From positions 12,000,001 to 12,064,000 of the forward strand of contig CP086569.2 of NCBI GenBank assembly GCA_009914755.4: DNA of 64,000 bases, in the 5' to 3' direction. Under the pieces are notes generated by a model. That model was not told the DNA's origin. It worked only from the letters and a program-made list of their open reading frames with translations, and searched no databases. The stretch is from the human T2T-CHM13v2.0 reference genome, Homo sapiens. The position numbers and the translations under genes are program-made. Below are positions 1-64,000 of this stretch, in pieces. Position 1 is the stretch's first letter. Every line of letters starts with the position of its first letter.

Positions 1-250
1 AATCGACTGAAATATAATAGACTCGAAAGGAATGGTCTCGAGCGGAATTTATTTGAATAGAACGGAATCAAATGGAATACAATAGTATGGAATGGAATCG
101 AATGGAATGGAATCGAATGGAATGTAATCAAATGGAATGGAACGGAATTCAATATAATGGAGTAGAATGGAATGCATTGGAAAGGAGCAGAGTGGAATCG
201 AGTGGATTGGAATCGAGTGGAATGGAATCAAAGGGAACAAATCAAATTGA
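1..250 (+). repeat. Partial HOR copy (3' end of a unit truncated by the window start)
   Basis: Matches the last about 250 bp of downstream HOR copies, for example 1379-1628. Confidence 0.8.
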
Positions 251-19512: not shown

Positions 19513-20885
19513 ATGGACTTGAATGGAATTGAGTCGAAAGGAATTGACTTGAAAGGAATGGACTGGAACAAAAAGGAATCAAATGGACAGGAATGGAATG
19601 GAATGGACTCGAATGGAATGGAGTCAAATGCAAACGCATCGAATGGAATGGATTCAAATGGAATGCAATTGAATGGAATAGAAAGGAAGAGAATGGAATT
19701 GAGAGTAATGGAAAGATATCGATTGGAATGAAATGGAATGGAAAGGAATTGAATGGAAAGGAATGGACTCGAAAGAAATGGATTGGAATGGAATGGTCTC
19801 CAATGGAATGGACTGGAGTGGAATGCAATCGAATGGAAAGAAAAGAATGGAACGGAATGGAATGGAAAGGAATAGAATGTTATGGAATCCGATTGAACAG
19901 AATGGAATGGAATGCAGTTTCATGAAATGGAGTCGAATAGTGTGGCATGAAAAAAAATGGAATGGAGTGGACTCAAAAGGAATGGACTCGAAAGGAATGG
20001 AGTCGAACCAAATTGAATCAAATGGATTGGAGTCGAACAGAATGGAATGGAATGGAATGAACTCGACTGGAGTAGAGAGGAATGAAAAGGAATAGAATGG
20101 AATGTAATCAAATGGATTGCAAGTGAATGGAATCAAAAATAATAGAAAGGAATGGAGTGTAAAGGGATGATACTGAATTAAATGGAATAGAATGGAATTT
20201 AATGGAATGGAGTCGAAGGAATGGACAGGAATGTAATGGACTCCAATGGAATGGAATGGATCAAAATGGATTTGAACTGATTGGAATCGAACGGAATGGA
20301 ATGCAGTGAAATGGAATGGACTCGATCAGAACGGACTGGAGAGGAATGTACACAAATGGAATGGAAACGAATGGAATGGAATGAAATGGAATGGAATGCA
20401 ATGGAATTGAAAGGAACGGAATCAAATGGAATGGAATGGAATGGAATGGATTGGAATAGAATGGATTCAAATAAAATAGAATCGATTGCAATGGTATTGA
20501 ATGGAAGGGACTTGAATGGAATGGAAAGCAATGGAAGATATTGGAAACGAATGGCATCGAATGAAATGGAATGGAACGGAATGGAACGGACCCGAATGGA
20601 ATGGAATGGACTCAAATGTAATGGACTCGAATGGAATCGACTGAAATATAATAGACTCGAAAGGAATGGCCTCGAGCGGAATTTATTTGAATAGAATGGA
20701 ATCAAATGGAATACAATAGTATAAAATGGAATCGAATGGAATGGAATCGAATGGAATGTAATCAAACGGAATGGAACGGAATTCAATATAATGGAGTAGA
20801 ATGGAATGCATTGGAAAGGAGCAGAGTGGAATCGAGTGGATTGGAATCGAGTGGAATGGAATCAAAGGGAACGAAATCGAATTGA
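19513..20885 (+). repeat. HOR copy 15, 1373 bp
   Basis: Anchor-to-anchor. Confidence 0.8.
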
Positions 20886-22258
20886 ATGGACTTGAATGGA
20901 ATTGAGTCGAAAGGAATTGACTCGAAAGGAATGGACTGGAAGAAAAAGGAATCAAATGGACAGGAGTGGAATGGAATGGACTCGAACGGAATGGAGTCAA
21001 ATGGAAACGCATCGAATGGAATGGATTCAAATGGAATGCAATTGAATGGAATAGAAAGGAAGAGAATGGAATTGAGAGTAATGGAAAGATATCGATTGGA
21101 ATGAAATGGAATGGAAAGGAATTGAATGGAAAGGAATGGACTCGAAAGAAATGGATTGGAATGCAATGGTCTCCAATGGAATGGACTGGAGTGGAATGGA
21201 AACGAATGGAATGAAAAGAATGGAACGGAATGGAACGGAAAGGAATAGAATGTTATGGAATCCGATTGGACAGAATGGAATGGAATGGAGTTTCATGAAA
21301 TGGAGTGGAATAGAGTGGCATCAAAAGGAATGGAATGGAGTGGACTCAAAAGGAATGGACTCGAAAGGAATGGAGTCGAACCAAATTGAATCAAATGGAT
21401 TGGAGTCGAACAGAATGGAATGGAATGGAATGAACTCGACTGGAGTAGAGAGGAATGAAAAGGAATAGAATGGAATGTAATCAAATGGATTGCAAATGAA
21501 TGGAATCAAAAATAATAGAAAGGAATGGAGTGTAAAGGGATGATATTGAATTAAATGGAATGGAATGGAATTTAATGGAATGGAGTCGAAGGAATGGACA
21601 GGAATGTAATGGACTCCTATGGAATAGAATGGATCAAAATGGATTTGAACAGATTGGAATCGAACGGAATGGAATGCAATGAAATGGAATGGACTCGATC
21701 AGAACGGACTGGAGAGTAATGTACACAAATGGAATGGAAACGAAAGGAATGCAATGAAAAGGAATGGAATGCAATGGAATTGAAAGGAACGGAATCAAAT
21801 GGAATGGAATGGAATGGAATGGATTGGAATAGAATGGATTCAAATAAAATAGAATCGATTGCAATGGTATTGAATGGAAGGGACTTGAATGGAATGGAAA
21901 GCAATGGAAGATATTGGAATCGAATGGCATCGAATGAAATGGAATGGAACGGAATGGAACGGACCCGAATGGTATGGAATGGACTCAAATGTAATGGACT
22001 CGAATGGAATCGACTGAAATATAATAGACTCGAAAGGAATGGCCTCGAGCGGAATTTATTTGAATAGAATGGAATCAAATGGAATACAATAGTATAGAAT
22101 GGAATCAAATGGAATGGAATCGAATGGAATGTAATCAAATGGAATGGAACGGAATTCAATATAATGGAGTAGAATGGAATGCATTGGAAAGGAGCAGAGT
22201 GGAATCGAGTGGATTGGAATCGAGTGGAATGGAATCAAAGGGAACGAAATCGAATTGA
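20886..22258 (+). repeat. HOR copy 16, 1373 bp
   Basis: Anchor-to-anchor. Confidence 0.8.
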
Positions 22259-23626
22259 ATGGACTTGAATGGAATTGAGTCGAAAGGAATTGACTCGAAA
22301 GGAATGGACTGGAACAAAAAGGAATCAAATGGACAGGAATGGAATGGAATGGACTCGAATGGAATGGAGTCAAATGCAAACGCATCGAATGGAATGGATT
22401 CAAATGGAATGCAATTGAATGGAATAGAAAGGAAGAGAATGGAATTGAGAGTAATGGAAAGATATCGATTGGAATGAAATGGAATGGAAAGGAATTGAAT
22501 GGAAAGGAATGGACTCGAAAGAAATGGATTGGAATGGAATGGTCTCCAATGGAATGGACTGGAGTGGAATGCAATCGAATGGAAAGAAAAGAATGGAACG
22601 GAATGGAATGGAAAGGAATAGAATGTTATGGAATCCGATTGAACAGAATGGAATGGAATGCAGTTTCATGAAATGGAGTCGAATAGAGTGGCATCAAAAG
22701 GAATGGAATGGAGTGGACTCAAAAGGAATGGACTCGAAAGGAATGGAGTCGAACCAAATTGAATCAAATGGATTGGAGTCGAACAGAATGGAATGGAATG
22801 GAATGAACTCGACTGGAGTAGAGAGGAATGAAAAGGAATAGAATGGAATGTAATCAAATGGATTGCAAGTGAATGGAATCAAAAATAATAGAAAGGAATG
22901 GAGTGTAAAGGGATGATACTGAATTAAATGGAATGGAATGGAATTTAATGGAATGGAGTCGAAGGAATGGACAGGAATGTAATGGACTCCAATGGAATGG
23001 AATGGATCAAAATGGATTTGAACAGATTGAAATCGAACGGAATGGAATGCAATGAAATGGAATGGACTCGATCAGAACGGACTGGAGAGGAATGTACACA
23101 AATGGAATGGAAACGAAAGGAATGGAATGAAATGGAATGGAATGCAATGGAATTGAAAGGAACGGAATCAAATGGAATGGAATGGAATGGATTGGAATAG
23201 AATGGATTCAAATAAAATAGAATCGATTGCAATGGTATTGAATGGAAGGGACTTGAATGGAATGGAAAGCAATGGAAGATATTGGAATCGAATGGCATCG
23301 AATGAAATGGAATGGAACGGAATGGAACGGACCCGAATGGAATGGAATGGACTCAAATGTAATGGACTCGAATGGAATCGACTGAAATATAATAGACTCG
23401 AAAGGAATGGCCTCGAGCGGAATTTATTTGAATAGAATGGAATCAAATGGAATACAATAGTATAGAAAGGAATCGAATGGAATGGAATCGAATGGAATGT
23501 AATCAAATGGAATGGAACGGAATTCAATATAATGGAGTAGAATGGAATGCATTGGAAAGGAGCAGAGTGGAATCGAGTGGATTGGAATCGAGTGGAATGG
23601 AATCAAAGGGAACGAAATCGAATTGA
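22259..23626 (+). repeat. HOR copy 17, 1368 bp
   Basis: Anchor-to-anchor. Only three GGAAT units in the internal run near 23166-23185. Confidence 0.8.
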
Positions 23627-24999
23627 ATGGACTTGAATGGAATTGAGTCGAAAGGAATTGACTCGAAAGGAATGGACTGGAACAAAAAGGAATCAAATGG
23701 ACAGGAATGGAATGGAATGGACTCGAATGGAATGGAGTCAAATGCAAACGCATCGAATGGAATAGATTCAAATGGAATGCAATTGAATGGAATAGAAAGG
23801 AAGAGAATGGAATTGAGAGTAATGGAAAGATATCGATTGGAATGAAATGGAATGGAAAGGAATTGAATGGAAAGGAATGGACTCGAAAGAAATGGATTGG
23901 AATGGAATGGTCTCCAATGGAATGGACTGGAGTGGAATGCAATCGAATGGAAAGAAAAGAATGGAACGGAATGGAATGGAAAGGAATAGAATGTTATGGA
24001 ATCCGATTGAACAGAATGGAATGGAATGCAGTTTCATGAAATGGAGTCGAATAGAGTGGCATCAAAAGGAATGGAATGGAGTGGACTCAAAAGGAATGGA
24101 CTCGAAAGGAATGGAGTCGAACCAAATTGAATCAAATGGATTGGAGTCGAACAGAATGGAATGGAATGGAATGAACTCGACTGGAGTAGAGAGGAATGAA
24201 AAGGAATAGAATGGAATGTAATCAAATGGATTGCAAGTGAATGGAATCAAAAATAATAGAAAGGAATGGAGTGTAAAGGGATGATACTGAATTAAATGGA
24301 ATGGAATGGAATTTAATGGAATGGAGTCGAAGGAATGGACAGGAATGTAATGGACTCCAATGGAATGGAATGGATCAAAATGGATTTGAAGAGATTGGAA
24401 TGGAACGGAATGGAATGCAATGAAATGGAATGGACTCGATCAGAACGGACTGGAGAGGAATGTACACAAATGGAATGGAAACGAAAGGAATGGAATGAAA
24501 TGGAATGGAATGCAATGGAATTGAAAGGAACGGAATCAAATGGAATGGAATGGAATGGAATGGATTGGAATAGAATGGATTCAAATAAAATAGAATCGAT
24601 TGCAATGGTATTGAATGGAAGGGACTTGAATGGAATGGAAAGCAATGGAAGATATTGGAATCGAATGGCATCGAATGAAATGGAATGGAACGGAATGGAA
24701 CGGACCCGAATGGAATGGAATGGACTCAAATGTAATGGACTCGAATGGAATCGACTGAAATATAATAGACTCGAAAGGAATGGCCTCGAGCGGAATTTAT
24801 TTGAATAGAATGGAATCAAATGGAATACAATAGTATAAAATGGAATCGAATGGAATGGAATCGAATGGAATGTAATCAAACGGAATGGAACGGAATTCAA
24901 TATAATGGAGTAGAATGGAATGCATTGGAAAGTAGCAGAGTGGAATCGAGTGGATTGGAATCGATTGGAATGGAATCAAAGGGAACGAAATCGAATTGA
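23627..24999 (+). repeat. HOR copy 18, 1373 bp
   Basis: Anchor-to-anchor. Confidence 0.8.
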
Positions 25000-26370
25000 A
25001 TGGACTTGAATGGAATTGAGTCGAAAGGAATTGACTCAAAAGGAATGGACTGGAACAAAAAGGAATCAAATGGACAGGAATGGAATGGAATGGACTCGAA
25101 TGGAATGGAGTCAATGCAAACGCATCGAATGGAATGGATTCAAATGGAATGCAATTGAATGGAATAGAAAGGAAGAGAATGGAATTGAGAGTAATGGAAA
25201 GATATCGATTGGAATGAAATGGAATGGAAAGGAATTGAATGGAAAGGAATGGACTCGAAAGAAATGGATTGGAATGGAATGGTCTCCAATGGAATGGACT
25301 GGAGTGGAATGCAATCGAATGGAAAGAAAAGAATGGAACGGAATGGAATGGAAAGGAATAGAATGTTATGGAATCCGATTGAACAGAATGGAATGGAATG
25401 CAGTTTCATGAAATGGAGTCGAATAGAGTGGTATAAAAGGAATGGAATGGAGTGGACTCAAAAGGAATGGACTCGAAAGGAATGGAGTCGAACCAAATTG
25501 AATCAAATGGATTGGAGTCGAACAGAATGGAATGGAATGGAATGAACTCGACTGGAGTAGAGAGGAATGAAAAGGAATAGAATGGAATGTAATCAAATGG
25601 ATTGCAAGTGAATGGAATCAAAAATAATAGAAAGGAATGGAGTGTAAAGGGATGATATTGAATTAAATGGAATGGAATGGAATTTAATGGAATGGAGTCG
25701 AAGGAATGGACAGGAATGTAATGGACTCCAATGGAATGGAATGGATCAAAATGTATTTGAACAGATTGGAATCGAACGGAATGGAATGCAATGAAATGGA
25801 ATGGACTCGATCAGAACGGACTGGAGAGGAATGTACACAAATGGAATGGAAACGAAAGGAATGGAATGAAATGGAATGGAATGCAATGGAATTGAAAGGA
25901 ACGGAATCAAATGGAATGGAATGGAATGGAATGGATTGGCATAGAATGGATTCAAATAAAATAGAATCGATTGCAATGGTATTGAATGGAAGGGACTTGA
26001 ATGGAATGGAAAGCAATGGAAGATATTGGAATCGAATGGCATCGAATGAAATGGAATGCAACGGAATGGAACGGACCCGAATGGTATGGAATGGACTCAA
26101 ATGTAATGGACTCGAATGGAATCGACTGAAATATAATAGACTCGAAAGGAATGGCCTCGAGCGGAATTTATTTGAATAGAATGGAATCAAATGGAATACA
26201 ATAGTATGGAATGGAATCGAATGGAATGGAATCGAATGGAATGTAATCAAATGGAATGGAACGGAATTCAATATAATGGAGTAGAATGGAATGCATTGGA
26301 AAGGAGCAGAGTGGAATCGAGTGGATTGGAATCGAGTGGAATGGAATCAAAGGGAACGAAATCGAATTGA
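25000..26370 (+). repeat. HOR copy 19, 1371 bp
   Basis: Anchor ATG at 25000. Carries a 1-bp deletion (gtcaatgcaaacg instead of gtcaaatgcaaacg) near 25113. Confidence 0.8.
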
Positions 26371-27743
26371 ATGGACTTGAATGGAATTGAGTCGAAAGGA
26401 ATTGACTCGAAAGGAATGGACTGGAACAAAAAGGAATCAAATGGACAGGAATGGAATGGAATGGACTCGAATGGAATGGAGTCAAATGCAAACGCATCGA
26501 ATGGAATGGATTCAAATGGAATGCAATTGAATGGAATAGAAAGGAAGAGAATGGAATTGAGAGTAATGGAAAGATATCGATTGGAATGAAATGGAATGGA
26601 AAGGAATTGAATGGAAAGGAATGGACTCGAAAGAAATGGATTGGAATGGAATGGTCTCCAATGGAATGGACTGGAGTGGAATGGAATCGAATGGAATGAA
26701 AAGAATGGAACGGAATGGAACGGAAAGGAATAGAATGTTATGGAATCCGATTGGACAGAATGGAATGGAATGCAGTTTCATGAAATGGAGTGGAATAGAG
26801 TGACATCAAAAGGAATGGAATGGAGTGGACTCAAAAGGAATGGACTCGAAAGGAATGGAGTCGAACCAAATTGAATCAAATGGATTGGAGTCGAACAGAA
26901 TGGAATGGAATGGAATGAACTCGACTGGAGTAGAGAGGAATGAAAAGGAATAGAATGGAATGTAATCAAATGGATTGCAAGTGAATGGAATCAAAAATAA
27001 TAGAAAGGAATGGAGTGTAAAGGGATGATATTGAATTAAATGGAATGGAATGGAATTTAATGGAATGGAGTCGAAGGAATGGACAGGAATGTAATGGACT
27101 CCAATGGAATGGAATGGATCAAAATGGATTTGAACAGATTGGAATGGAACGGAATGGAATGCAATGAAATGGAATGGACTCGATCAGAACGGACTGGAGA
27201 GGAATGTACACAAATGGAATGGAAACGAAAGGAATGGAATGAAATGGAATGGAATGCAATGGAATTGAAAGGAACGGAATCAAATGGAATGGAATGGAAT
27301 GGAATGGATTGGAATAGAATGGATTCAAATAAAATAGAATCGATTGCAATGGTATTGAATGGAAGGGACTTGAATGGAATGGAAAGCAATGGAAGAGATT
27401 GGAATCGAATGGCATCGAATGAAATGGAATGGAACGGAATGGAACGGACCCGAATGGAATGGAATGGACTCAAATGTAATGGACTCGAATGGAATCGACT
27501 GAAATATAATAGACTCGAAAGGAATGGCCTCGAGCGGAATTTATTTGAATAGAATGGAATCAAATGGAATACAATCGTATGGAATGGAATCGAATGGAAT
27601 GGAATCGAATGGAATGTAATCAAATGGAATGGAACGGAATTCAATATAATGGAGTAGAATGGAATGCATTGGAAAGGAGCAGAGTGGAATCGAGTGGATT
27701 GGAATCGAGTGGAATGGAATCAAAGGGAAACAAATCGAATTGA
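26371..27743 (+). repeat. HOR copy 20, 1373 bp
   Basis: Anchor-to-anchor. Confidence 0.8.
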
Positions 27744-29116
27744 ATGGACTTGAATGGAATTGAGTCGAAAGGAATTGACTCAAAAGGAATGGACTGGAAC
27801 AAAAAGGAATCAAATGGACAGGAATGGAATGGAAAGGACTCGAATGGAATGGAGTCAAATGCAAACGCATCGAATGGAATGGATTCAAATGGAATGCAAT
27901 TGAATGGAATAGAAAGGAAGAGAATGGAATTGAGAGTAATGGAAAGATATCGATTGGAATGAAATGGAATGGAAAGGAATTGAATGGAAAGGAATGGACT
28001 CGAAAGAAATGGATTGGAATGGAATGGTCTCCAATGGAATGGACTGGAGTGGAATGGAATCGAATGGAAAGAAAAGAATGGAACGGAATGGAACGGAAAG
28101 GAATAGAATGTTATGGAATCCGATTGGACAGAATGGAATGGAATGCAGTTTCATGAAATGAAGTCGAATAGAGTGGCATCAAAAGGAATGGAATGGAGTG
28201 GACTCAAAAGGAATGGACTCGAAAGGAATGGAGTCGAACCAAATTGAATCAAATGGATTGGAGTCGAACAGAATGGAATGGAATGGAATGAACTCGACTG
28301 GAGTAGAGAGGAATGAAAAGGAATAGAATGGAATGTAATCAAATGGATTGCAAGTGAATGGAATCAAAAATAATAGAAAGGAATGGAGTGTAAAGGGATG
28401 ATATTGAATTAAATGGAATGGAATGGAATTTAATGGAATGGAGTCGAAGGAATGGACAGGAATGTAATGGACTCCAATGGAATGGAATGGATCAAAATGG
28501 ATTTGAACAGATTGGAATGGAACGGAATGGAATGCAATGAAATGGAGTGGACTCGATCAGAACGGACTGGAGAGGAATGTACACAAATGGAATGGAAACG
28601 AAAGGAATGGAATGAAATGGAATGGAATGCAATGGAATTGAAAGGAACGGAATCAAATGGAATGGAATGGAATGGAATGGATTGGAATAGAATGGATTCA
28701 AATAAAATAGAATCGATTGCAATGGTATTGAATGGAAGGGACTTGAATGGAATGGAAAGCAATGGAAGATATTGGAATCGAATGGCATCGAATGAAATGG
28801 AATGGAACGGAATGGAACGGACCCGAATGGAATGGAATGGACTCAAATGTAATGGACTCGAATGGAATCGACTGAAATATAATAGACTCGAAAGGAATGG
28901 CCTCAAGCGGAATTTATTTGAATAGAATGGAATCAAATGGAATACAATAGTATAGAATGGAATCGAATGGAATGGAATCGAATGGAATGTAATCAAATGG
29001 AATGGAACGGAATTCAATATAATGGAGTAGAATGGAATGCATTGGAAAGGAGCAGAGTGGAATCGAGTGGATTGGAATCGAGTGGAATGGAATCAAAGGG
29101 AACGAAATCGAATTGA
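27744..29116 (+). repeat. HOR copy 21, 1373 bp
   Basis: Anchor-to-anchor. Confidence 0.8.
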
Positions 29117-31145
29117 ATGGACTTGAATGGAATTGAGTCGAAAGGAATTGACTCGAAAGGAATGGACTGGAACAAAAAGGAATCAAATGGACAGGAATGG
29201 AATGGAATGGACTCGAATGGAATGGAGTCAAATGCAAACGCATCGAATGGAATGGATTCAAATGGAATGCAATTGAATGGAATAGAAAGGAAGAGAATGG
29301 AATTGAGAGTAATGGAAAGATATCGATTGGAATGAAATGGAATGGAAAGGAATTGAATGGAAAGGAATGGACTCGAAAGAAATGGATTGGAATGGAATGG
29401 TCTCCAATGGAATGGACTGGAGTGGAATGCAATCGAATGGAAAGAAAAGAATGGAACGGAATGGAACGGAAAGGAATAGAATGTTATGGAATCCGATTGG
29501 ACAGAATGGAATGGAATGCAGTTTCATGAAATGGAGTCGAATAGAGTGTCATGAAAAGGAATGGAATGGAGTGGACTCAAAAGGAATGGACTCGAAAGGA
29601 ATGGAGTCGAACCAAATTGAATCAAATGGATTGGAGTCGAACAGAATGGAATGGAATGGAATGAACTCGACTGGAGAAGAGAGGAATGAAAAGGAATAGA
29701 ATGGAATGTAATCAAATGGATTGCAAGTGAATGGAATCAAAAATAATAGAAAGGAATGGAGCGTAAAGGGATGATATTGAATTAAATGGAATGGAATGGA
29801 ATTTAATGGAATGGAGTCGAAGGAATGGACAGGAATGTAATGGACTCCTATGGAATGGAATGGATCAAAATGGATTTGAACAGATTGGAATCGAACGGAA
29901 TGGAATGCAATGAAATGGAATGGACTCGATCAGAACGGACTGGAGAGGAATGTACACAAATGGAATGGAAACGAAAGGAATGCAATGAAAAGGAATGGAA
30001 TGCAATGGAATTGAAAGGAACGGAATCAAATGGAATGGAATGGAATGGAATGGATTGGAATAGAATGGATTCAAATAAAATAGAATAGATTGCAATGGTA
30101 TTGAATGGAAGGGTCTTGAATGGAATGGAAAGCAATGGAAGATATTGGATTCGAATGGCATCGAATGAAATGGAATGGAACGGAATGGAACGGACCCGAA
30201 TGGTATGGAAAGGACTCAAATGTAATGGACTCGAATGGAATCGACTGAAATATAATAGACTCGAAAGGAATGTCCTCGAGCGGAATTTATTTGAATAGAA
30301 TTGAATCAAATGGAATACAATAGTATGGAATGGAATCGAATGGAATGGAATCGAATGGAATGTAATCAAATGGAATGGAACGGAATTCAATATAATGGAG
30401 TAGAATGGAATGCATTGGAAAGGAGCAGAGTGGAATCGAGTGGATTGGAATCGAGTGGAATGGAATCAAAGGGAACGAAATCGAATTGAATGGACTTGAA
30501 TGGAATTGAGTCGAAAGGAATTGACTCGAAAGGAATGGACTGGAACAAAAAGGAATCAAATGGACAGGAATGGAATGGAATGGACTCGAATGGAATGGAG
30601 TCAAATGCAAACGCATCGAATGGAATGGATTCAAATGGAATGCAATTGAATGGAATAGAAAGGAAGAGAATGGAATTGAGAGTAATGGAAAGATATCGAT
30701 TGGAATGAAATGGAATGGAAAGGAATTGAATGGAAAGGAATGGACTCGAAAGAAATGGATTGGAATGCAATGGTCTCCAATGGAATGGACTGGAGTGGAA
30801 TGGAATCGAATGGAATGAAAAGAATGGAACGGAATGGAACGGAAAGGAATAGAATGTTATGGAATCCGATTGGACAGAATGGAATGGAATGCAGTTTCAT
30901 GAAATGGAGTGGAATAGAGTGGCATCAAAAGGAATGGAATGGAGTGGACTCAAAAGGAATGGACTCGAAAGGAATGGAGTCGAACCAAATTGAATCAAAT
31001 GGATTGGAGTCGAACAGAATGGAATGGAATGGAATGAACTCGACTGGAGTAGAGAGGAATGAAAAGGAATAGAATGGAATGTAATCAAATGGATTGCAAG
31101 TGAATGGAATCAAAAATAATAGAAAGGAATGGAGTGTAAAGGGAT
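28400..31145 (+). repeat. Two-HOR block, copy 1 of a 2746-bp tandem duplication (approximate bounds)
   Basis: ORFs 28430..29017, 28452..28925, 29825..30088, 29848..30390, 30387..30770 and 30897..31088 recur identically at +2746: 31176..31763, 31198..31671, 32571..32834, 32594..33136, 33133..33516 and 33643..33834. Confidence 0.8.
29117..30489 (+). repeat. HOR copy 22, 1373 bp
   Basis: Anchor-to-anchor. Confidence 0.8.
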
Positions 31146-31862
31146 GATATTGAATTAAATGGAATGGAATGGAATTTAATGGAATGGAGTCGAAGGAATG
31201 GACAGGAATGTAATGGACTCCAATGGAATGGAATGGATCAAAATGGATTTGAACAGATTGGAATGGAACGGAATGGAATGCAATGAAATGGAGTGGACTC
31301 GATCAGAACGGACTGGAGAGGAATGTACACAAATGGAATGGAAACGAAAGGAATGGAATGAAATGGAATGGAATGCAATGGAATTGAAAGGAACGGAATC
31401 AAATGGAATGGAATGGAATGGAATGGATTGGAATAGAATGGATTCAAATAAAATAGAATCGATTGCAATGGTATTGAATGGAAGGGACTTGAATGGAATG
31501 GAAAGCAATGGAAGATATTGGAATCGAATGGCATCGAATGAAATGGAATGGAACGGAATGGAACGGACCCGAATGGAATGGAATGGACTCAAATGTAATG
31601 GACTCGAATGGAATCGACTGAAATATAATAGACTCGAAAGGAATGGCCTCAAGCGGAATTTATTTGAATAGAATGGAATCAAATGGAATACAATAGTATA
31701 GAATGGAATCGAATGGAATGGAATCGAATGGAATGTAATCAAATGGAATGGAACGGAATTCAATATAATGGAGTAGAATGGAATGCATTGGAAAGGAGCA
31801 GAGTGGAATCGAGTGGATTGGAATCGAGTGGAATGGAATCAAAGGGAACGAAATCGAATTGA
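30490..31862 (+). repeat. HOR copy 23, 1373 bp
   Basis: Anchor-to-anchor. Confidence 0.8.
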
Positions 31863-33891
31863 ATGGACTTGAATGGAATTGAGTCGAAAGGAATTGACTC
31901 GAAAGGAATGGACTGGAACAAAAAGGAATCAAATGGACAGGAATGGAATGGAATGGACTCGAATGGAATGGAGTCAAATGCAAACGCATCGAATGGAATG
32001 GATTCAAATGGAATGCAATTGAATGGAATAGAAAGGAAGAGAATGGAATTGAGAGTAATGGAAAGATATCGATTGGAATGAAATGGAATGGAAAGGAATT
32101 GAATGGAAAGGAATGGACTCGAAAGAAATGGATTGGAATGGAATGGTCTCCAATGGAATGGACTGGAGTGGAATGCAATCGAATGGAAAGAAAAGAATGG
32201 AACGGAATGGAACGGAAAGGAATAGAATGTTATGGAATCCGATTGGACAGAATGGAATGGAATGCAGTTTCATGAAATGGAGTCGAATAGAGTGTCATGA
32301 AAAGGAATGGAATGGAGTGGACTCAAAAGGAATGGACTCGAAAGGAATGGAGTCGAACCAAATTGAATCAAATGGATTGGAGTCGAACAGAATGGAATGG
32401 AATGGAATGAACTCGACTGGAGAAGAGAGGAATGAAAAGGAATAGAATGGAATGTAATCAAATGGATTGCAAGTGAATGGAATCAAAAATAATAGAAAGG
32501 AATGGAGCGTAAAGGGATGATATTGAATTAAATGGAATGGAATGGAATTTAATGGAATGGAGTCGAAGGAATGGACAGGAATGTAATGGACTCCTATGGA
32601 ATGGAATGGATCAAAATGGATTTGAACAGATTGGAATCGAACGGAATGGAATGCAATGAAATGGAATGGACTCGATCAGAACGGACTGGAGAGGAATGTA
32701 CACAAATGGAATGGAAACGAAAGGAATGCAATGAAAAGGAATGGAATGCAATGGAATTGAAAGGAACGGAATCAAATGGAATGGAATGGAATGGAATGGA
32801 TTGGAATAGAATGGATTCAAATAAAATAGAATAGATTGCAATGGTATTGAATGGAAGGGTCTTGAATGGAATGGAAAGCAATGGAAGATATTGGATTCGA
32901 ATGGCATCGAATGAAATGGAATGGAACGGAATGGAACGGACCCGAATGGTATGGAAAGGACTCAAATGTAATGGACTCGAATGGAATCGACTGAAATATA
33001 ATAGACTCGAAAGGAATGTCCTCGAGCGGAATTTATTTGAATAGAATTGAATCAAATGGAATACAATAGTATGGAATGGAATCGAATGGAATGGAATCGA
33101 ATGGAATGTAATCAAATGGAATGGAACGGAATTCAATATAATGGAGTAGAATGGAATGCATTGGAAAGGAGCAGAGTGGAATCGAGTGGATTGGAATCGA
33201 GTGGAATGGAATCAAAGGGAACGAAATCGAATTGAATGGACTTGAATGGAATTGAGTCGAAAGGAATTGACTCGAAAGGAATGGACTGGAACAAAAAGGA
33301 ATCAAATGGACAGGAATGGAATGGAATGGACTCGAATGGAATGGAGTCAAATGCAAACGCATCGAATGGAATGGATTCAAATGGAATGCAATTGAATGGA
33401 ATAGAAAGGAAGAGAATGGAATTGAGAGTAATGGAAAGATATCGATTGGAATGAAATGGAATGGAAAGGAATTGAATGGAAAGGAATGGACTCGAAAGAA
33501 ATGGATTGGAATGCAATGGTCTCCAATGGAATGGACTGGAGTGGAATGGAATCGAATGGAATGAAAAGAATGGAACGGAATGGAACGGAAAGGAATAGAA
33601 TGTTATGGAATCCGATTGGACAGAATGGAATGGAATGCAGTTTCATGAAATGGAGTGGAATAGAGTGGCATCAAAAGGGATGGAATGGAGTGGACTCAAA
33701 AGGAATGGACTCGAAAGGAATGGAGTCGAACCAAATTGAATCAAATGGATTGGAGTCGAACAGAATGGAATGGAATGGAATGAACTCGACTGGAGTAGAG
33801 AGGAATGAAAAGGAATAGAATGGAATGTAATCAAATGGATTGCAAGTGAATGGAATCAAAAATAATAGAAAGGAATGGAGTGTAAAGGGAT
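31146..33891 (+). repeat. Two-HOR block, copy 2 of the 2746-bp tandem duplication (approximate bounds)
   Basis: See copy 1. About two single-base differences were seen (ORF 30710 vs 33456, ORF 30925 vs 33671). Confidence 0.8.
31863..33235 (+). repeat. HOR copy 24, 1373 bp
   Basis: Anchor-to-anchor. Equals 29117-30489. Confidence 0.8.
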
Positions 33892-34608
33892 GATATTGAA
33901 TTAAATGGAATGGAATGGAATTTAATGGAATGGAGTCGAAGGAATGGACAGGAATGTAATGGACTCCAATGGAATGGAATGGATCAAAATGGATTTGAAG
34001 AGATTGGAATGGAACGGAATGGAATGCAATGAAATGGAATGGACTCGATCAGAACGGACTGGAGAGGAATGTACACAAATGGAATGGAAACGAAAGGAAT
34101 GGAATGAAATGGAATGGAATGCAATGGAATTGAAAGGAACGGAATCAAATGGAATGGAATGGAATGGAATGGATTGGAATAGAATGGATTCAAATAAAAT
34201 AGAATCGATTGCAATGGTATTGAATGGAAGGGACTTGAATGGAATGGAAAGCAATGGAAGATATTGGAATCGAATGGCATCGAATGAAATGGAATGGAAC
34301 GGAATGGAACGGACCCGAATGGAATGGAATGGACTCAAATGTAATGGACTCGAATGGAATCGACTGAAATATAATAGACTCGAAAGGAATGTCCTCGAGC
34401 GGAATTTATTTGAATAGAATGGAATCAAATGGAATACAATCGTATGGAATGGAATCGAATGGAATGGAATCGAATGGAATGTAATCAAATGGAATGGAAC
34501 GGAATTCAATATAATGGAGTAGAATGGAATGCATTGGAAAGGAGCAGAGTGGAATCGAGTGGATTGGAATCGAGTGGAATGGAATCAAAGGGAATGAAAT
34601 CGAATTGA
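33236..34608 (+). repeat. HOR copy 25, 1373 bp
   Basis: Anchor-to-anchor. Equals 30490-31862. Confidence 0.8.
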
Positions 34609-35981
34609 AGGGACTTGAATGGAATTGAGTCGAAAGGAATTGACTCAAAAGGAATGGACTGGAACAAAAAGGAATCAAATGGACAGGAATGGAATGGAAG
34701 GGACTCGAATGGAATGGAGTCAAATGCAAACGCATCGAATGGAATGGATTCAAATGGAATGCAATTGAATGGAATAGAAAGGAAGAGAATGGAATTGAGA
34801 GTAATGGAAAGATATCGATTGGAATGAAATGGAATGGAAAGGAATTGAATGGAAAGGAATGGACTCGAAAGAAATGGATTGGAATGGAATGGTCTCCAAT
34901 GGAATGGACTGGAGTGGAATGGAATCGAATGGAAAGAAAAGAATGGAACGGAATGGAACGGAAAGGAATAGAATGTTATGGAATCCGATTGGACAGAATG
35001 GAATGGAATGCAGTTTCATGAAATGAAGTCGAATAGAGTGGCATCAAAAGGAATGGAATGGAGTGGACTCAAAAGGAATGGACTCGAAAGGAATGGAGTC
35101 GAACCAAATTGAATCAAATGGATTGGAGTCGAACAGAATGGAATGGAATGGAATGAACTCGACTGGAGTAGAGAGGAATGAAAAGGAATAGAATGGAATG
35201 TAATCAAATGGATTGCAAGTGAATGGAATCAAAAATAATAGAAAGGAATGGAGTGTAAAGGGATGATATTGAATTAAATGGAATGGAATGGAATTTAATG
35301 GAATGGAGTCGAAGGAATGGACAGGAATGTAATGGACTCCAATGGAATGGAATGGATCAAAATGGATTTGAACAGATTGGAATGGAACGGAATGGAATGC
35401 AATGAAATGGAATGGACTCGATCAGAACGGACTGGAGAGGAATGTACACAAATGGAATGGAAACGAAAGGAATGGAATGAAATGGAATGGAATGCAATGG
35501 AATTGAAAGGAACGGAATCAAATGGAATGGAATGGAATGGAATGGATTGGAATAGAATGGATTCAAATAAAACAGAATCGATTGCAATGGTATTGAATGG
35601 AAGGGACTTGAATGGAATGGAAAGCAATGGAAGAGATTGGAATCGAATGGCATCGAATGAAATGGAATGGAACGGAATGGAACGGACCCGAATGGAATGG
35701 AATGGACTCAAATGTAATGGACTCGAATGGAATCGACTGAAATATAATAGACTCGAAAGGAATGGCCTCAAGCGGAATTTATTTGAATAGAATGGAATCA
35801 AATGGAATACAATAGTATAGAATGGAATCGAATGGAATGGAATCGAATGGAATGTAATCAAATGGAATGGAACGGAATTCAATATAATGGAGTAGAATGG
35901 AATGCATTGGAAAGGAGCAGAGTGGAATCGAGTGGATTGGAATCGAGTGGAATGGAATCAAAGGGAACGAAATCGAATTGA
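34609..35981 (+). repeat. HOR copy 26, 1373 bp
   Basis: Anchor mutated (AGGGACTTG) at 34609. Length measured to the next anchor. Confidence 0.75.
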
Positions 35982-37359
35982 ATGGACTTGAATGGAATTG
36001 AGTCGAAAGGAATTGACTCGAAAGGAATGGACTGGAACAAAAAGGAATCAAATGGACAGGAATGGAATGGAATGGACTCGAATGGAATGGAGTCAAATGC
36101 AAACGCATCGAATGGAATGGATTCAAATGGAATGCAATTGAATGGAATAGAAAGGAAGAGAATGGAATTGAGAGTAATGGAAAGATATCGATTGGAATGA
36201 AATGGAATGGAAAGGAATTGAATGGAAAGGAATGGACTCGAAAGAAATGGATTGGAATGGAATGGTCTCCAATGGAATGGACTGGAGTGGAATGCAATCG
36301 AATGGAAAGAAAAGAATGGAACGGAATGGAACGGAAAGGAATAGAATGTTATGGAATCCGATTGGACAGAATGGAATGGAATGCAGTTTCATGAAATGGA
36401 GTCGAATAGAGTGTCATGAAAAGGAATGGAATGGAGTGGACTCAAAAGGAATGGACTCGAAAGGAATGGAGTCGAACCAAATTGAATCAAATAGATTGGA
36501 GTCGAACAGAATGGAATGGAATGGAATGAACTCGACTGGAGTAGAGAGGAATGAAAAGGAATAGAATGGAATGTAATCAAATGGATTGCAAGTGAATGGA
36601 ATCAAAAATAATAGAAAGGAATGGAGTGTAAAGGGATGATATTGAATTAAATGGAATGGAATGGAATTTAATGGAATGGAGTAGAAGGAATGGACAGGAA
36701 TGTAATGGACTCCAATGGAACGGAATGGATCAAAATGTATTTGAACAGATTGGAATCGAACGGAATGGAATGCAATGAAATGGAATGGACTCGATCAGAA
36801 CGGACTGGAGAGGAATGTACACAAATGGAATGGAAACGAAAGGAATGGAATGAAATGGAATGGAATGCAATGGAATTGAAAGGAACGGAATCAAATGGAA
36901 TCGAATGGAATGGAATGGAATGGATTGGAATAGAATGGATTCAAATAAAATAGAATCGATTGCAATGGTATTGAATGGAAGGGACTTGAATGGAATGGAA
37001 AGCAATGGAAGATATTGGAATCGAATGGCATCGAATGAAATGGAATGGAACGGAATGGAACGGACCCGAATGGAATGGAATGGACTCAAATATAATGGAC
37101 TCTAATGGAATCGACTGAAGTATAATAGACTCGAAAGGAATGTCCTGAAGCGGAATTTATTTGAATAGAATGGAATCAAATGGAATACAATCGTATGGAA
37201 TGGAATCGAATGGAATGGAATCGAATGGAATGTAATCAAATGGAATGGAACGGAATTCAATATAATGGAGTAGAATGGAATGCATTGGAAAGGAGCAGAG
37301 TGGAATCGAGTGGATTGGAATCGAGTGGAATGGAATCAAAGGGAACGAAATCGAATTGA
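35982..37359 (+). repeat. HOR copy 27, 1378 bp
   Basis: Anchor-to-anchor. XhoI site mutated to CCTGAAGCGG near 37145. Confidence 0.8.
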
Positions 37360-38732
37360 ATGGATTTGAATGGAATTGAGTCGAAAGGAATTGACTCGAA
37401 AGGAATGGACTGGAACAAAAAGGAATCAAATGGACAGGAATGGAATGGAAGGGACTCGAATGGAATGGAGTGAAATGCAAACGCATCGAATGGAATGGAT
37501 TCAAATGGAATGCAATTGAATGGAATAGAAAGGAAGAGAATGGAATTGAGAGTAATGGAAAGATATCGATTGGAATGAAAGGGAATGGAAAGGAATTGAA
37601 TGGAAAGGAATGGACTCGAAAGAAATGGATTGGAATGGAATGGTCTCCAATGGAATGGACTGGAGTGGAATGGAATCGAATGGAAAGAAAAGAATGGAAC
37701 GGAATGGAACGGAAAGGAATAGAATGTTATGGAATCCGATTGGACAGAATGCAATGGAATGCAGTTTCATGAAATGGAGTCGAATAGAGTGGCATCAAAA
37801 GGAATGGAATGGAGTGGACTCAAAAGGAATGGACTCGAAAGGAATGGAGTCGAACCAAATTGAATCAAATGGATTGGAGTCGAACAGAATGGAATGGAAT
37901 GGAATGAACTCGACTGGAGTAGAGAGGAATGAAAAGGAATAGAATGGAATGTAATCAAATGGATTGCAAGTGAATGGAATCAAAAATAATAGAAAGGAAT
38001 GGAGTGTAAAGGGATGATATTGAATTAAATGGAATGTAATGGAATTTAATGGAATGGAGTCGAAGGAATGGACAGGAATGTAATGGACTCCAATGGAATG
38101 GAATGGATCAAAATGGATTTGAACAGATTGGAATCGAACGGAATGGAATGCAATGAAATGGAATGGACTCGATCAGAACGGACTGGAGAGGAATGTACAC
38201 AAATGGAATGGAAACGAAAGGAATGGAATGAAATGGAATGGAATGCAATGGAATTGAAAGGAACGGAATCAAATGGAATGGAATGGAATGGAATGGATTG
38301 GAATAGAATGGATTCAAATAAAGTAGAATCGATTGCAATGGTATTGAATGGAAGGGACTTGAATGGAATGGAAAGCAATGGAAGATATTGGAATCGAATG
38401 GCATCGAATGAAATGGAATGGAACGGAATGGAACGGACCCGAATGGAATGGAATGGACTCAAATGTAATGGACTCGAATGGAATCGACTGAAATATAATA
38501 GACTCGAAAGGAATGTCCTCGAGCGGAATTTATTTGAATAGAATGGAATCAAATGGAATACAATCGTATGGAATGGTATCGAATGGAATGGAATCGAATG
38601 GAATGTAATCAAATGGAATGGAACGGAATTCAATATAATGGAGTAGAATGGAAAGCATTGGAAAGGAGCAGAGTGGAATCGAGTGGATTGGAATCGAGTG
38701 GAATGGAATCAAAGGGAACGAAATCGAATTGA
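37360..38732 (+). repeat. HOR copy 28, 1373 bp (type-B haplotype)
   Basis: Anchor variant ATGGATTTG at 37360. Linked diagnostic variants gaatgaaaGGgaatgg (37570) and cagaatgCaatggaatgcag (37741). Confidence 0.75.
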
Positions 38733-40110
38733 ATGGACTTGAATGGAATTGAGTCGAAAGGAATTGACTCGAAAGGAATGGACTGGAACAAAAAGGAATC
38801 AAATGGACAGGAATGGAATGGAATGGACTCGAATGGAATGGAGTCAAATGCAAACGCATCGAATGGAATGGATTCAAATGGAATGCAATTGAATGGAATA
38901 GAAAGGAAGAGAATGGAATTGAGAGTAATGGAAAGATATCGATTGGAATGAAATGGAATGGAAAGGAATTGAATGGAAAGGAATGGACTCGAAAGAAATG
39001 GATTGGAATGGAATGGTCTCCAATGGAATGGACTGGAGTGGAATGCAATCGAATGGAAAGAAAAGAACGGAACGGAATGGAACGGAAAGGAATAGAATGT
39101 TATGGAATCCGATTGAACAGAATGGAATGGAATGCAGTTTCATGAAATGGAGTCGAATAGAGTGGCATGAAAAGGAATGGAATGGAGTGGACTCAAAAGG
39201 AATAGACTCGAAAGGAATGGAGTCGAACCAAATTGAATCAAATAGATTGGAGTCGAACAGAATGGAATGGAATGGAATGAACTCGACTGGAGTAGAGAGG
39301 AATGAAAAGGAATAGAATGGAATGTAATCAAATGGATTGCAAGTGAATGGAATCAAAAATAATAGAAAGGAATGGAGTGTAAAGGGATGATATTGAATTA
39401 AATGGAATGGAATGGAATTTAATGGAATGGAGTAGAAGGAATGGACAGGAATGTAATGGACTCCAATGGAACGGAATGGATCAAAATGTATTTGAACAGA
39501 TTGGAATCGAACGGAATGGAATGCAATGAAATGGAATGGACTCGATCAGAACGGACTGGAGAGGAATGTACACAAATGGAATGGAAACGAAAGGAATGGA
39601 ATGAAATGGAATGGAATGCAATGGAATTGAAAGGAACGGAATCAAATGGAATGGAATGGAATGGAATGGAATGGATTGGAATAGAATGGATTCAAATAAA
39701 ATAGAATCGATTGCAATGGTATTGAATGGAAGGGACTTGAATGGAATGGAAAGCAATGGAAGATATAGGAATCGAATGGCATCGAATGAAATGGAATGGA
39801 AAGGAATGGAACGGACCCGAATGGAATGGAATGGACTCAAATATAATGGACTCTAATGGAATCGACTGAAGTATAATAGACTCGAAAGGAATGTCCTGAA
39901 GCGGAATTTATTTGAATAGAATGGAATCAAATGGAATACAATCGTATGGAATGGAATCGAATGGAATGGAATCGAATGGAATGTAATCAAATGGAATGGA
40001 ACGGAATTCAATATAATGGAGTAGAATGGAATGCATTGGAAAGGAGCAGAGTGGAATCGAGTGGATTGGAATCGAGTGGAATGGAATCAAAGGGAACGAA
40101 ATCGAATTGA
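38733..40110 (+). repeat. HOR copy 29, 1378 bp
   Basis: Anchor-to-anchor. Confidence 0.8.
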
Positions 40111-41488
40111 ATGGATTTGAATGGAATTGAGTCGAAAGGAATTGACTCGAAAGGAATGGACTGGAACAAAAAGGAATCAAATGGACAGGAATGGAATGGA
40201 ATGGACTCGAATGGAATGGAGTCAAATGCAAACGCATCGAATGGAATGGATTCAAATGGAATGCAATTGAATGGAATAGAAAGGAAGAGAATGGAATTGA
40301 GAGTAATGGAAAGATATCGATTGGAATGAAAGGGAATGGAAAGGAATTGAATGGAAAGGAATGGACTCGAAAGAAATGGATTGGAATGGAATGGTCTCCA
40401 ATGGAATGGACTGGAGTGGAATGGAATCGAATGGAAAGAAAAGAATGGAACGGAATGGAACGGAAAGGAATAGAATGTTATGGAATCCGATTGGACAGAA
40501 TGCAATGGAATGCAGTTTCATGAAATGGAGTCGAATAGAGTGGCATCAAAAGGAATGGAATGGAGTGGACTCAAAAGGAATGGACTCGAAAGGAATGGAG
40601 TCGAACCAAATTGAATCAAATGGATTGGAGTCGAACAGAATGGAATGGAATGCAATGAACTCGACTGGAGTAGAGAGGAATGAAAAGGAATAGAATGGAA
40701 TGTAATCAAATGGATTGCAAGTGAATGGAATCAAAAATAATAGAAAGGAATGGAGTGTAAAGGGATGATATTGAATTAAATGGAATGGAATGGAATTTAA
40801 TGGAATGGAGTAGAAGGAATGGACAGGAATGTAATGGACTCCAATGGAACGGAATGGATCAAAATGTATTTGAACAGATTGGAATCGAACGGAATGGAAT
40901 GCAATGAAATGGAATGGACTCGATCAGAACGGACTGGAGAGGAATGTACACAAATGGAATGGAAACGAAAGGAATGGAATGAAATGGAATGGAATGCAAT
41001 GGAATTGAAAGGAACGGAATCAAATGGAATGGAATGGAATGGAATGGAATGGATTGGAATAGAATGGATTCAAATAAAATAGAATCGATTGCAATGGTAT
41101 TGAATGGAAGGGACTTGAATGGAATGGAAAGCAATGGAAGATATTGGAATCGAATGGCATCGAATGAAATGGAATGGAACGGAATGGAACGGACCCGAAT
41201 GGAATGGAATGGACTCAAATATAATGGACTCTAATGGAATCGACTGAAGTATAATAGACTCGAAAGGAATGTCCTGAAGCGGAATTTATTTGAATAGAAT
41301 GGAATCAAATGGAATACAATCGTATGGAATGGAATCGAATGGAATGGAATCGAATGGAATGTAATCAAATGGAATGGAACGGAATTCAATATAATGGAGT
41401 AGAATGGAATGCATTGGAAAGGAGCAGAGTGGAATCGAGTGGATTGGAATCGAGTGGAATGGAATCAAAGGGAACGAAATCGAATTGA
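40111..41488 (+). repeat. HOR copy 30, 1378 bp (type-B haplotype)
   Basis: Anchor-to-anchor. Type-B diagnostic variants at 40325 and 40500. Confidence 0.8.
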
Positions 41489-42861
41489 ATGGATTTGAAT
41501 GGAATTGAGTCGAAAGGAATTGACTCGAAAGGAATGGACTGGAACAAAAAGGAATCAAATGGACAGGAATGGAATGGAAGGGACTCGAATGGAATGGAGT
41601 CAAATGCAAATGCATCGAATGGAATGGATTCAAATGGAATGCAATTGAATGGAATAGAAAGGAAGAGAATGGAATTGAGAGTAATGGAAAGATATCGATT
41701 GGAATGAAAGGGAATGGAAAGGAATTGAATGGAAAGGAATGGACTTGAAAGAAATGGATTGGAATGGAATGGTCTCCAATGGAATGGACTGGAGTGGAAT
41801 GGAATCGAATGGAAAGAAAAGAATGGAACGGAATGGAACGGAAAGGAATAGAATGTTATGGAATCCGATTGGACAGAATGCAATGGAATGCAGTTTCATG
41901 AAATGGAGTCGAATAGAGTGGCATCAAAAGGAATGGAATGGAGTGGACTCAAAAGGAATGGACTCGAAAGGAATGGAGCCGAACCAAATTGAATCAAATG
42001 GATTGGAGTCGAACAGAATGGAATGGAATGGAATGAACTCGACTGGAGTAGAGAGGAATGAAAAGGAATAGAATGGAATGTAATCAAATGGATTGCAAGT
42101 GAATGGAATCAAAAATAATAGAAAGGAATGGAGTGTAAAGGGATGATATTGAATTAAATGGAATGGAATGGAATTTAATGGAATGGAGTCGAAGGAATGG
42201 ACAGGAATGTAATGGACTCCAATGGAATGGAATGGATCAAAATGGATTTGAACAGATTGGAATCGAACGGAATGGAATGCAATGAAATGGAATGGACTCG
42301 ATCAGAACGGACTGGAGAGGAATGTACACAAATGGAATGGAAACGAAAGGAATGGAATGAAATGGAATGGAATGCAATGGAATTGAAAGGAACGGAATCA
42401 AATGGAATGGAATGGAATGGAATGGATTGGAATAGAATGGATTCAAATAAAATAGAATCGATTGCAATGGTATTGAATGGAAGGGACTTGAATGGAATGG
42501 AAAGCAATGGAAGATATTGGAATCGAATGGCATCGAATGAAATGGAATGGAACGGAATGGAACGGACCCGAATGGAATGGAATGGACTCAAATGTAATGG
42601 ACTCGAATGGAATCGACTGAAATATAATAGACTCGAAAGGAATGGCCTCGAGCGGAATTTATTTGAATAGAATGGAATAAAATGGAGTACAATCGTATGG
42701 AATGGAATCGATTGGAATGGAATCGAATGGAATGTAATCAAATGGAATGGAACGGAATTCAATATAATGGAGTAGAATGGAATGCATTGGAAAGGAGCAG
42801 AGTGGAATCGAGTGGATTGGAATCGAGTGGAATGGAATCAAAGGGAACGAAATCGAATTGA
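41489..42861 (+). repeat. HOR copy 31, 1373 bp (type-B haplotype)
   Basis: Anchor-to-anchor. Type-B diagnostic variants at 41705 and 41879. Confidence 0.8.
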
Positions 42862-63491: not shown

Positions 63492-64000
63492 ATGGACTTG
63501 AATGGAATTGAGTCGAAAGGAATTGACTCGAAAGGAATGGACTGGAACAAAAAGGAATCAAATGGACAGGAATGGAATGGAATGGACTCGAATGGAATGG
63601 AGTCAAATGCAAACGCATCGAATGGAATGGATTCAAATGGAATGCAATTGAATGGAATAGAAAGGAAGAGAATGGAATTGAGAGTAATGGAAAGATATCG
63701 ATTGGAATGAAATGGAATGGAAAGGAATTGAATGGAAAGGAATGGACTCGAAAGAAATGGATTGGAATGGAATGGTCTCCAATGGAATGGACTGGAGTGG
63801 AATGCAATCGAATGGAAAGAAAAGAATGGAACGGAATGGAATGGAAAGGAATAGAATGTTATGGAATCCGATTGAACAGAATGGAATGGAATGCAGTTTC
63901 ATGAAATGGAGTCGAATATAGTGGCATCAAAAGGAATGGAATGGAGTGGACTCAAAAGGAATGGACTCGAAAGGAATGGAGTCGAACCAAATTGAATCAA
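63492..64000 (+). repeat. Partial HOR copy (5' 509 bp, truncated by the window end)
   Basis: Begins with the anchor motif at 63492. Matches the start of upstream copies. Confidence 0.8.

What the first reader, a model, noticed from the sequence alone, without database searches (positions are those of the whole stretch)
28400..33900. Second very recent tandem duplication: 2746-bp (two-HOR) block
Six consecutive ORF landmarks are identical at offset +2746, with only about 2 base differences. This sits inside a region that also shows a 6865-bp (five-HOR) near-repeat: 27.5-29.7 kb vs 34.4-36.6 kb, for example 27824..28156 = 34689..35021 and 28914..29432 = 35779..36297. So local periodicities of 2 and 5 HOR units are superimposed.
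Basis: seen in the sequence. Interest (0 to 1): 0.5.

Follow-up and report, generated by a model that had tools for sequence, protein, structure and literature searches.

The report
Recent two-unit duplication in HSat3 satellite
Inside a human (GGAAT)n satellite array built from 1373-bp units, one block of two units has very recently been copied head-to-tail, an ordinary and already described way in which such arrays grow.

Summary
The whole 64-kb window is one uninterrupted, single-orientation (GGAAT)n satellite of the human satellite 3 (HSat3) type. It has about 47 units of roughly 1373 bp.

- **The duplication.** Units at 28400-31145 and 31146-33891 differ at one base (30933 A / 33679 G), which is 99.96% identity. 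Other two-unit blocks at the same lag differ by 45 ± 13 sites. The near-identical tract at offset 2746 runs 28166-31253, so the repeat spans 28166-33999.
- **The 6865-bp near-repeat.** It is real but older and longer than stated: 26184-29627 vs 33049-36492, with 13 mismatches (99.62%).
- **Interpretation.** The reading of "superimposed periodicities of 2 and 5 units" is not supported. There is no array-wide lag-2 or lag-5 signal. The pattern (unit types N O P O P N O) is explained by an older copy at a 3-unit offset (4119 bp), later pushed apart by the 2746-bp duplication.
- **Mechanism.** It is most likely an out-of-register homologous exchange, or a replication template switch, between units two apart. 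This is inferred, not shown.
- **Other checks.** The ORF "landmarks" are translation artefacts.
- **What could not be done.** I could not identify the chromosome or subfamily, and I could not exclude an assembly artefact.

Ordinary, low interest.

The parts
28166..30911 (+). Copy 1 of the 2746-bp duplicated block. The phase is arbitrary within the junction ambiguity: the copy may start anywhere from 28166 to 28508.
   Evidence: No mismatch at offset 2746 from 28166 to 30932. Exact run of 2767 bp. Units 20 and 21 vs 22 and 23 differ by 0 and 1 sites.
30912..33657 (+). Copy 2 of the 2746-bp duplicated block, head-to-tail with copy 1.
   Evidence: No minus-strand self-match anywhere in the window.
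33658..33999 (+). Right-hand extension of the identity tract, 342 bp. The same sequence occurs at 28166-28507 and at the junction 30912-31253. The exchange point lies somewhere in this homology.
   Evidence: The tract at offset 2746 is 3088 bp = 2746 + 342. It is bounded by mismatches at 28165 and 31254. Variant table.
33679..33679 (+). The only difference between the copies: G here, A at 30933 and at 28187. G is private to this unit.
   Evidence: the alignment column has 44 A and 1 G.
26184..29627 (+). Left copy of the older near-repeat. It covers the tail of unit 18 plus units 19 and 20 (types M, N, O).
   Evidence: 99.62% identical to 33049-36492, 13 mismatches in 3444 bp.
33049..36492 (+). 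Right copy of the older near-repeat. Its offset is 6865 bp now, and 4119 bp (3 units) once one copy of the recent duplication is removed.
1..64000 (+). Host array: a (GGAAT)n-derived satellite with the GGAAT-rich strand on +. It has about 47 nested tandem repeat units of 1368-1383 bp, with 1373 the most common.

Best explanation
The window is a human HSat3-type pericentromeric satellite array made of about 1373-bp nested tandem repeat units.

Within it, a 2746-bp segment (two units) was duplicated in tandem very recently. The most likely route is a homology-directed, out-of-register event between units two positions apart. This could be unequal sister-chromatid (or homologue) exchange, or the equivalent template switch during replication or break repair. 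The product is ...N O P | O P N O..., with the join hidden inside sequence shared by the misaligned units.

The event fell across an older copy pair that originally lay 3 units apart. That is why those older copies now lie 5 units (6865 bp) apart.

Shown: the structure, the identity levels and the order of the two events. Inferred: the recombination mechanism, the age, and that copy number increased rather than existing units being overwritten.
For: - **Array and unit.**
- **Near-identity.** Copies differ at 0-1 of 2746 sites, against 44.8 +/- 13.3 for other lag-2 two-unit blocks.
- **Geometry.** The period is exactly 2 x 1373 bp with no indel or filler at the join, and orientation is direct.
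- **Junction.** It lies in a tract shared by the flanks: 342 bp (28166-28507) if the single G is a later mutation, or 21 bp (28166-28186) if the G predates the event.
- **The single difference.** It is a singleton among 45 units, as expected of a new mutation.
- **Order of events.** The duplicated segment starts inside the left older copy and ends inside the right one. The older pair is about 12 times more diverged (13/3444 vs 1/3088).
- **Insertion rather than overwriting.** Removing 2746 bp gives an exact 3-unit offset. Unit 18 vs unit 21 then also pairs, with 14 differences and shared variants at alignment columns 442, 1054 and 1149.
- **Recurrence.** A second event of the same kind and similar age (period 8252 bp, 2 singleton differences) lies 5.6 kb to the left.
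- **Literature.** HSat2/3 nested tandem repeats are reported to expand 'hyper-locally', with recent expansions inside HSat3 arrays. Sister-chromatid exchanges were detected in HSat heterochromatin of Yq12.
Against: - Sequence alone cannot separate unequal exchange from a replication template switch.
- It also cannot fully separate either from a long (at least 2.77 kb) gene conversion that overwrote two pre-existing units.
- The 342-bp junction tract is not unusual: 16.7% of random positions at lag 2 lie in identity runs that long. It therefore gives no specific support for a minimum-homology requirement.
- No reads were available, so a false duplication made by the assembler is not excluded.
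- No second haplotype was available to show the pre-duplication state.
Confidence: 0.8

Rival explanations
1. Long-tract gene conversion. Units 22-23 already existed and were overwritten by the sequence of units 20-21 (or the reverse), with no change in copy number.
For: It gives the same present-day sequence. Intermediate-age patchwork blocks show that units in this array exchange sequence.
Against: - The tract would have to be at least 2767 bp and exactly in a 2-unit register. From general knowledge, mammalian conversion tracts are usually well under 1 kb.
- Removing 2746 bp restores an exact 3-unit spacing of the older N O copies and pairs unit 18 with unit 21. That is expected for an insertion and would be a coincidence for an overwrite.
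Confidence: 0.08
2. Assembly artefact. The assembler wrongly repeated a two-unit block, or mis-resolved the copy number, in a highly repetitive array.
For: Near-perfect tandem copies in satellites are a classic place for false duplications. Validation and polishing of such regions was a separate effort for T2T assemblies (paper listed). No read data could be examined here.
Against: - The block is only 5.8 kb in total, with flanks that differ at about 1.5% of sites. Ordinary 15-20-kb accurate long reads would span it.
- The copies are distinguished by a substitution, not a homopolymer length change.
- A second, independent event with two singleton substitutions lies nearby.
Confidence: 0.07
3. 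True multi-unit periodicity. The array is in fact organised in regular 2-unit and 5-unit super-repeats.
For: A weak 2746/2751 peak appears in the interval spectrum. Another lag-5 block (51326-52861 vs 58206-59741) exists.
Against: - Mean difference at lags 2 and 5 equals that at lags 1, 3 and 4.
- The unit-type string shows no regular pattern outside the two recent duplications.
- The 2746 peak is 1.2% against 27% at 1373, about what a harmonic gives.
Confidence: 0.03

Closest known systems
Human satellite 3 (HSat3) nested tandem repeat arrays with hyper-local recent expansions (Altemose et al., 'Complete genomic and epigenetic maps of human centromeres')
   Same: It is a (CATTC)n/(GGAAT)n-derived satellite with kilobase-scale repeat units about 98% alike. 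It contains patches of much more recent local amplification involving whole multiples of the unit (searches compared).
   Different: The subfamily and chromosome of this 1373-bp unit were not identified. I found no published mention of a 1373-bp HSat3 period in the library searched.
DYZ1, the 3.6-kb HSat3 nested tandem repeat of Yq12, with recent expansion events and detected sister-chromatid exchanges (T2T-Y paper)
   Same: Same satellite family and the same kind of kb-scale unit. Units are over 98% identical, with recent expansions visible as exact long matches.
   Different: The unit length is different (1373 vs about 3600 bp). There is no interleaved HSat1B in this window.
Alpha-satellite HOR arrays evolving by unequal crossing-over and layered expansion
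   Same: Copy-number change happens in whole repeat units through out-of-register homologous exchange. Younger duplications are nested in older ones.
   Different: Alpha-satellite HORs are built of discrete 171-bp monomers. Here the unit is a diverged pentamer repeat with no monomer level: self-identity at offset 171 is 0.28, no higher than at other offsets that are not multiples of 5 (0.13-0.36), while multiples of 5 give about 0.63.

Membership tests
Human satellite 3 (HSat3) | Derived from the pentamer (CATTC)n = (GGAAT)n | tested here: met
   The five commonest 5-mers are the five rotations of GGAAT, with 3495-4291 occurrences each. Self-identity is about 0.62-0.67 at every multiple of 5. 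TRF periods are 10, 15 and 25.
Human satellite 3 (HSat3) | Lacks the HSat2 template (decamer pair plus trimers, 23/26-bp structure) | tested here: met
   Self-identity is 0.13 at offset 23 and 0.32 at offset 26. The motif ATCATCGAATGG is absent. The HSat2 template is as described.
Human satellite 3 (HSat3) | Classical satellite III decamer CAACCCGAGT / ACTCGGGTTG interspersed (feature recalled from the older literature) | tested here: not met
   There are 0 exact occurrences on either strand. ACTCGAATGG-type variants are frequent instead (78). I am not sure all HSat3 subfamilies carry this decamer, so I treat this as a caveat rather than an exclusion.
Human satellite 3 (HSat3) | Human origin | tested here: met
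   A 42-mer that is invariant in all units occurs in 25 metagenome contigs, of which the three whose records name a source are human gut (1) and human skin (2). In those contigs successive copies are 1373 bp apart and units are about 99.5% identical to window units. There were no matches in prokaryotic genomes. This is indirect evidence, from host contamination.
Human satellite 3 (HSat3) | Assignment to one of the HSat3 subfamilies (A1-A6, B1-B5) by subfamily-specific k-mers | not testable with these tools
   No human reference genome or subfamily k-mer set was available. Literature searches did not give a 1373-bp period.
Tandem duplication by unequal homologous exchange | Direct, head-to-tail copies whose period is a whole number of base units, with no junction scar | tested here: met
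   2746 = 2 x 1373 exactly, with ungapped identity across the join. No inverted matches.
Tandem duplication by unequal homologous exchange | Copies far more alike than the array background | tested here: met
   1 difference against 44.8 +/- 13.3. P is about 1e-19.
Tandem duplication by unequal homologous exchange | Join lies in a stretch of uninterrupted identity long enough for homologous recombination | tested here: inconclusive
   The stretch is 342 bp if 33679 G arose after the event, and only 21 bp if the G was already there. A 342-bp run is not rare, at 16.7% of positions.
Tandem duplication by unequal homologous exchange | Pre-duplication or reciprocal-deletion allele exists in other haplotypes | not testable with these tools
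   This needs other human assemblies of the same array.

The most novel reading that the evidence does not exclude
The two near-perfect duplications in 64 kb (2 and 6 units) could mark an unusually active expansion zone of this HSat3 array. The O P dimer could be the first step of a new 2746-bp super-unit that is polymorphic among people. If so, it would serve as a marker for measuring satellite duplication rates on dated haplotypes.
Probability: 0.1. Interest if true: 0.3.

Novelty: already known. Interest (0 to 1): 0.1.

Why it matters
It matters little on its own. It is a clean, base-resolved example of how HSat3 arrays turn over. Whole-unit duplications of different sizes are layered on one another, with ages readable from singleton substitutions. 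Such events can be useful as markers for dating and for comparing satellite haplotypes across human assemblies. They are also places where assemblies deserve read-level validation. The work also shows that the apparent 5-unit period is a by-product of nesting, not a structural rule.

Tried and rejected
- **Fuzzy regex segmentation.** It timed out and was replaced by BLAST segmentation.
- **BLAST self-comparison as a dot plot.** It dropped the offset-2746 hit through its own culling of overlapping self hits. I replaced it with a column-wise scan of the unit alignment.
- **Coding potential of the ORF landmarks.** The ORFs overlap on both strands. The only Pfam hits are sub-threshold Pentapeptide_4 (31.5 and 27 bits vs cut-off 38) and LD_SV2 (17.1 and 17.7 bits vs cut-off 29). 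Both are artefacts of translating a 15-bp periodic repeat. Rejected as genes.
- **Structured RNA.** No Rfam family reached threshold.
- **Inversions or palindromes.** There are no minus-strand self-matches.
- **Chromosome or subfamily identification.** Literature and supplement searches for a 1.37/1.4-kb HSat3 period found nothing usable.
- **Prokaryotic genome scan.** No hits, as expected.
- **Junction homology as evidence for recombination.** The tract length is not statistically unusual.
Full report
**What the window is**

GC content (0.38-0.39), GC skew (+0.56 to +0.60) and AT skew are constant across all 64 kb. Tandem Repeats Finder sees one array from base 23 to 63986, with periods 10, 15 and 25. 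The five commonest pentamers are the rotations of GGAAT.

Ungapped self-identity peaks at every multiple of 5 and, most strongly, at 1373 bp (0.77) and 1378 bp. An NTRprism-like k-mer interval spectrum puts 27% of the signal at 1373 and 15% at 1378. Offsets 23 and 26, typical of HSat2, give no signal.

BLAST with one unit cuts the window into 47 consecutive units of 1368-1383 bp, all in one orientation. There are no inverted self-matches, no Rfam matches, and no interruption by other sequence.

A 42-mer that is invariant in all units is present in 25 metagenome contigs. The three whose records name a source are human gut (1) and human skin (2). In those contigs copies are 1373 bp apart and units are about 99.5% identical to window units. 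It is absent from prokaryotic genomes. I therefore read the window as human HSat3-type satellite.

The kilobase unit is what Altemose et al. call a nested tandem repeat rather than a true HOR. I could not determine the chromosome or subfamily. The classical satellite III decamer CAACCCGAGT is absent, and I record that as a caveat.

**Checking the observation**

In the all-against-all comparison of 45 complete units, the mean difference is 23.8 sites (98.3% identity).

- Units at 28400 and 31146 are identical.
- Units at 29773 and 32519 differ at one site.
- At offset 2746 there is no mismatch from 28166 to 31253 except 30933 (A) vs 33679 (G).
- The longest exact run is 2767 bp, second in the window only to a 4838-bp run at offset 8252.
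- Other two-unit blocks at lag 2 differ by 44.8 ± 13.3 sites, minimum 21.
- With 47.7 differences expected, at most 1 has a Poisson probability of about 1e-19.

These ORFs overlap on both strands and give only sub-threshold Pfam hits (Pentapeptide_4 and LD_SV2), which are artefacts of translating a 15-bp periodic repeat. They are landmarks, not genes.

**The 6865-bp near-repeat**

A column-wise scan of the unit alignment finds 26184-29627 vs 33049-36492 with 13 mismatches in 3444 bp (99.62%). Units 19/24 and 20/25 differ by 7 and 6 sites. This ranks 12th of 946 two-unit block comparisons, where the median is 49 differences.

**Periodicity or nesting?**

Mean differences at lags 1-5 are 21.7, 21.2, 21.4, 22.1 and 21.8, so there is no array-wide 2-unit or 5-unit period.

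Clustering units at 8 or fewer differences gives the local order M N O P O P N O for units 18-25. Deleting one O P copy leaves M N O P N O. The N O copies are then 4119 bp (exactly 3 units) apart, and unit 18 (M) pairs with unit 21 (P). Those two differ at 14 sites and share variants at alignment columns 442, 1054 and 1149.

The recently duplicated segment begins inside the left older copy and ends inside the right one, so it is the later event. The 5-unit offset is 3 + 2, a by-product of nesting.

**The junction and the single difference**

The identity tract (3088 bp) exceeds the period by 342 bp. The same 342 bp occur at 28166-28507, 30912-31253 and 33658-33999, so the join cannot be placed more precisely than that.

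The G at 33679 lies 21 bp into the third occurrence and is a singleton among 45 units. There are two readings:

- **(a)** The exchange happened anywhere in a 342-bp identity tract, and the A→G change came later.
- **(b)** The G was already private to the single ancestral P unit, the exchange fell in the 21 bp at 28166-28186, and the copies have accumulated no change at all.

P carries several other private variants. A simple likelihood comparison with uniformly placed exchanges, which is my own inference and not a tool result, mildly favours (b). A requirement for a few hundred bp of uninterrupted identity for mammalian homologous recombination (established knowledge) favours (a). A 342-bp run is not unusual, since 16.7% of positions lie in runs that long, so it does not decide the matter.

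**Mechanism**

The event is in register, a whole number of units long and scar-free, in an array whose units are 98% identical. That is what unequal sister-chromatid or homologue exchange produces, as would a template switch during replication or break-induced repair.

The literature retrieved supports this as normal behaviour:

- HSat2/3 nested repeats evolve and expand "hyper-locally".
- Recent expansions are seen inside an HSat3B3 array.
- Sister-chromatid exchanges and recent expansions are seen in Yq12 HSat heterochromatin.

Gene conversion of two pre-existing units would give the same sequence, but it needs a tract of at least 2.77 kb and makes the exact 3-unit spacing a coincidence. An assembly artefact cannot be excluded without reads.

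**Age (inference)**

With 1 difference in 3088 compared sites and 1.2e-8 mutations per site per generation, the point estimate is about 13,500 generations (95% interval about 340-75,000). It is proportionally less if satellites mutate faster, and close to zero under reading (b). The older pair is about 12 times more diverged.

**Context**

A larger event of the same kind lies to the left. Its period is 8252 bp (6 units): 5604-14275 = 13856-22527, with two mismatches, both singletons and both necessarily inside the duplicated segment. Several blocks at 99.6-99.8% identity lie to the right. The array is a patchwork of duplications of different sizes and ages, as described for human satellites.

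**Verdict**

The tandem-duplication reading is supported, and the "superimposed periodicities" reading is replaced by nesting. This is a textbook, already described mode of satellite evolution, so interest is low.

Noticed in passing
window 5604-14275 vs 13856-22527: A larger very recent tandem duplication with a period of 8252 bp (six units) and an 8672-bp identity tract. It has two mismatches (6213 A / 14465 G, 9437 C / 17689 A), both singletons among 45 units and both necessarily post-duplication. Its divergence (0.02%) is similar to that of the 2746-bp event.
   Followed up: partly
window 39490-43907 vs 53245-57662; 40926-43773 / 49174-52021 / 54681-57528; 35827-38511 vs 45453-48137: Intermediate-age blocks at 99.6-99.8% identity, at lags of 10, 6, 4 and 7 units. 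They include a three-copy family of about 2.85 kb. This shows layered older duplications to the right of the finding, one of which overlaps the end of the older N O copy.
   Followed up: partly
window units starting 36638, 39389, 40767, 46264, 49015, 53144, 54522: A subfamily of 1378-bp units carrying a 5-bp insertion near alignment columns 257-266. They differ from each other by only 2-11 sites and from 1373-bp units by 19-43 sites. They are interleaved irregularly with 1373-bp units.
   Followed up: no
window 2285-5032 and 9161-10543 / 17413-18795: The units here are the most divergent in the window, at 24-43 differences from every other unit outside their own close pair (units 1 and 2 differ by 16; units 6 and 12 by 1). 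The unit at 9161 and its recent copy at 17413 are 1383 bp long.
   Followed up: no
loci L003, L010, L014, L019, L022 (metagenome contigs of 7-9 kb): Each holds one or two consensus-like 1373-bp units, flanked by GGAAT satellite that is only 75-80% similar to the window. They may be array edges or short-read assembly chimeras. They could help place the array if compared with a human reference.
   Followed up: no
window 28430-29017 (-) and 29848-30390 (-): ORF translations give sub-threshold Pfam Pentapeptide_4 hits (31.5 and 27 bits, cut-off 38). This is an artefact of the 15-bp (five-codon) periodicity of the satellite.
   Followed up: yes
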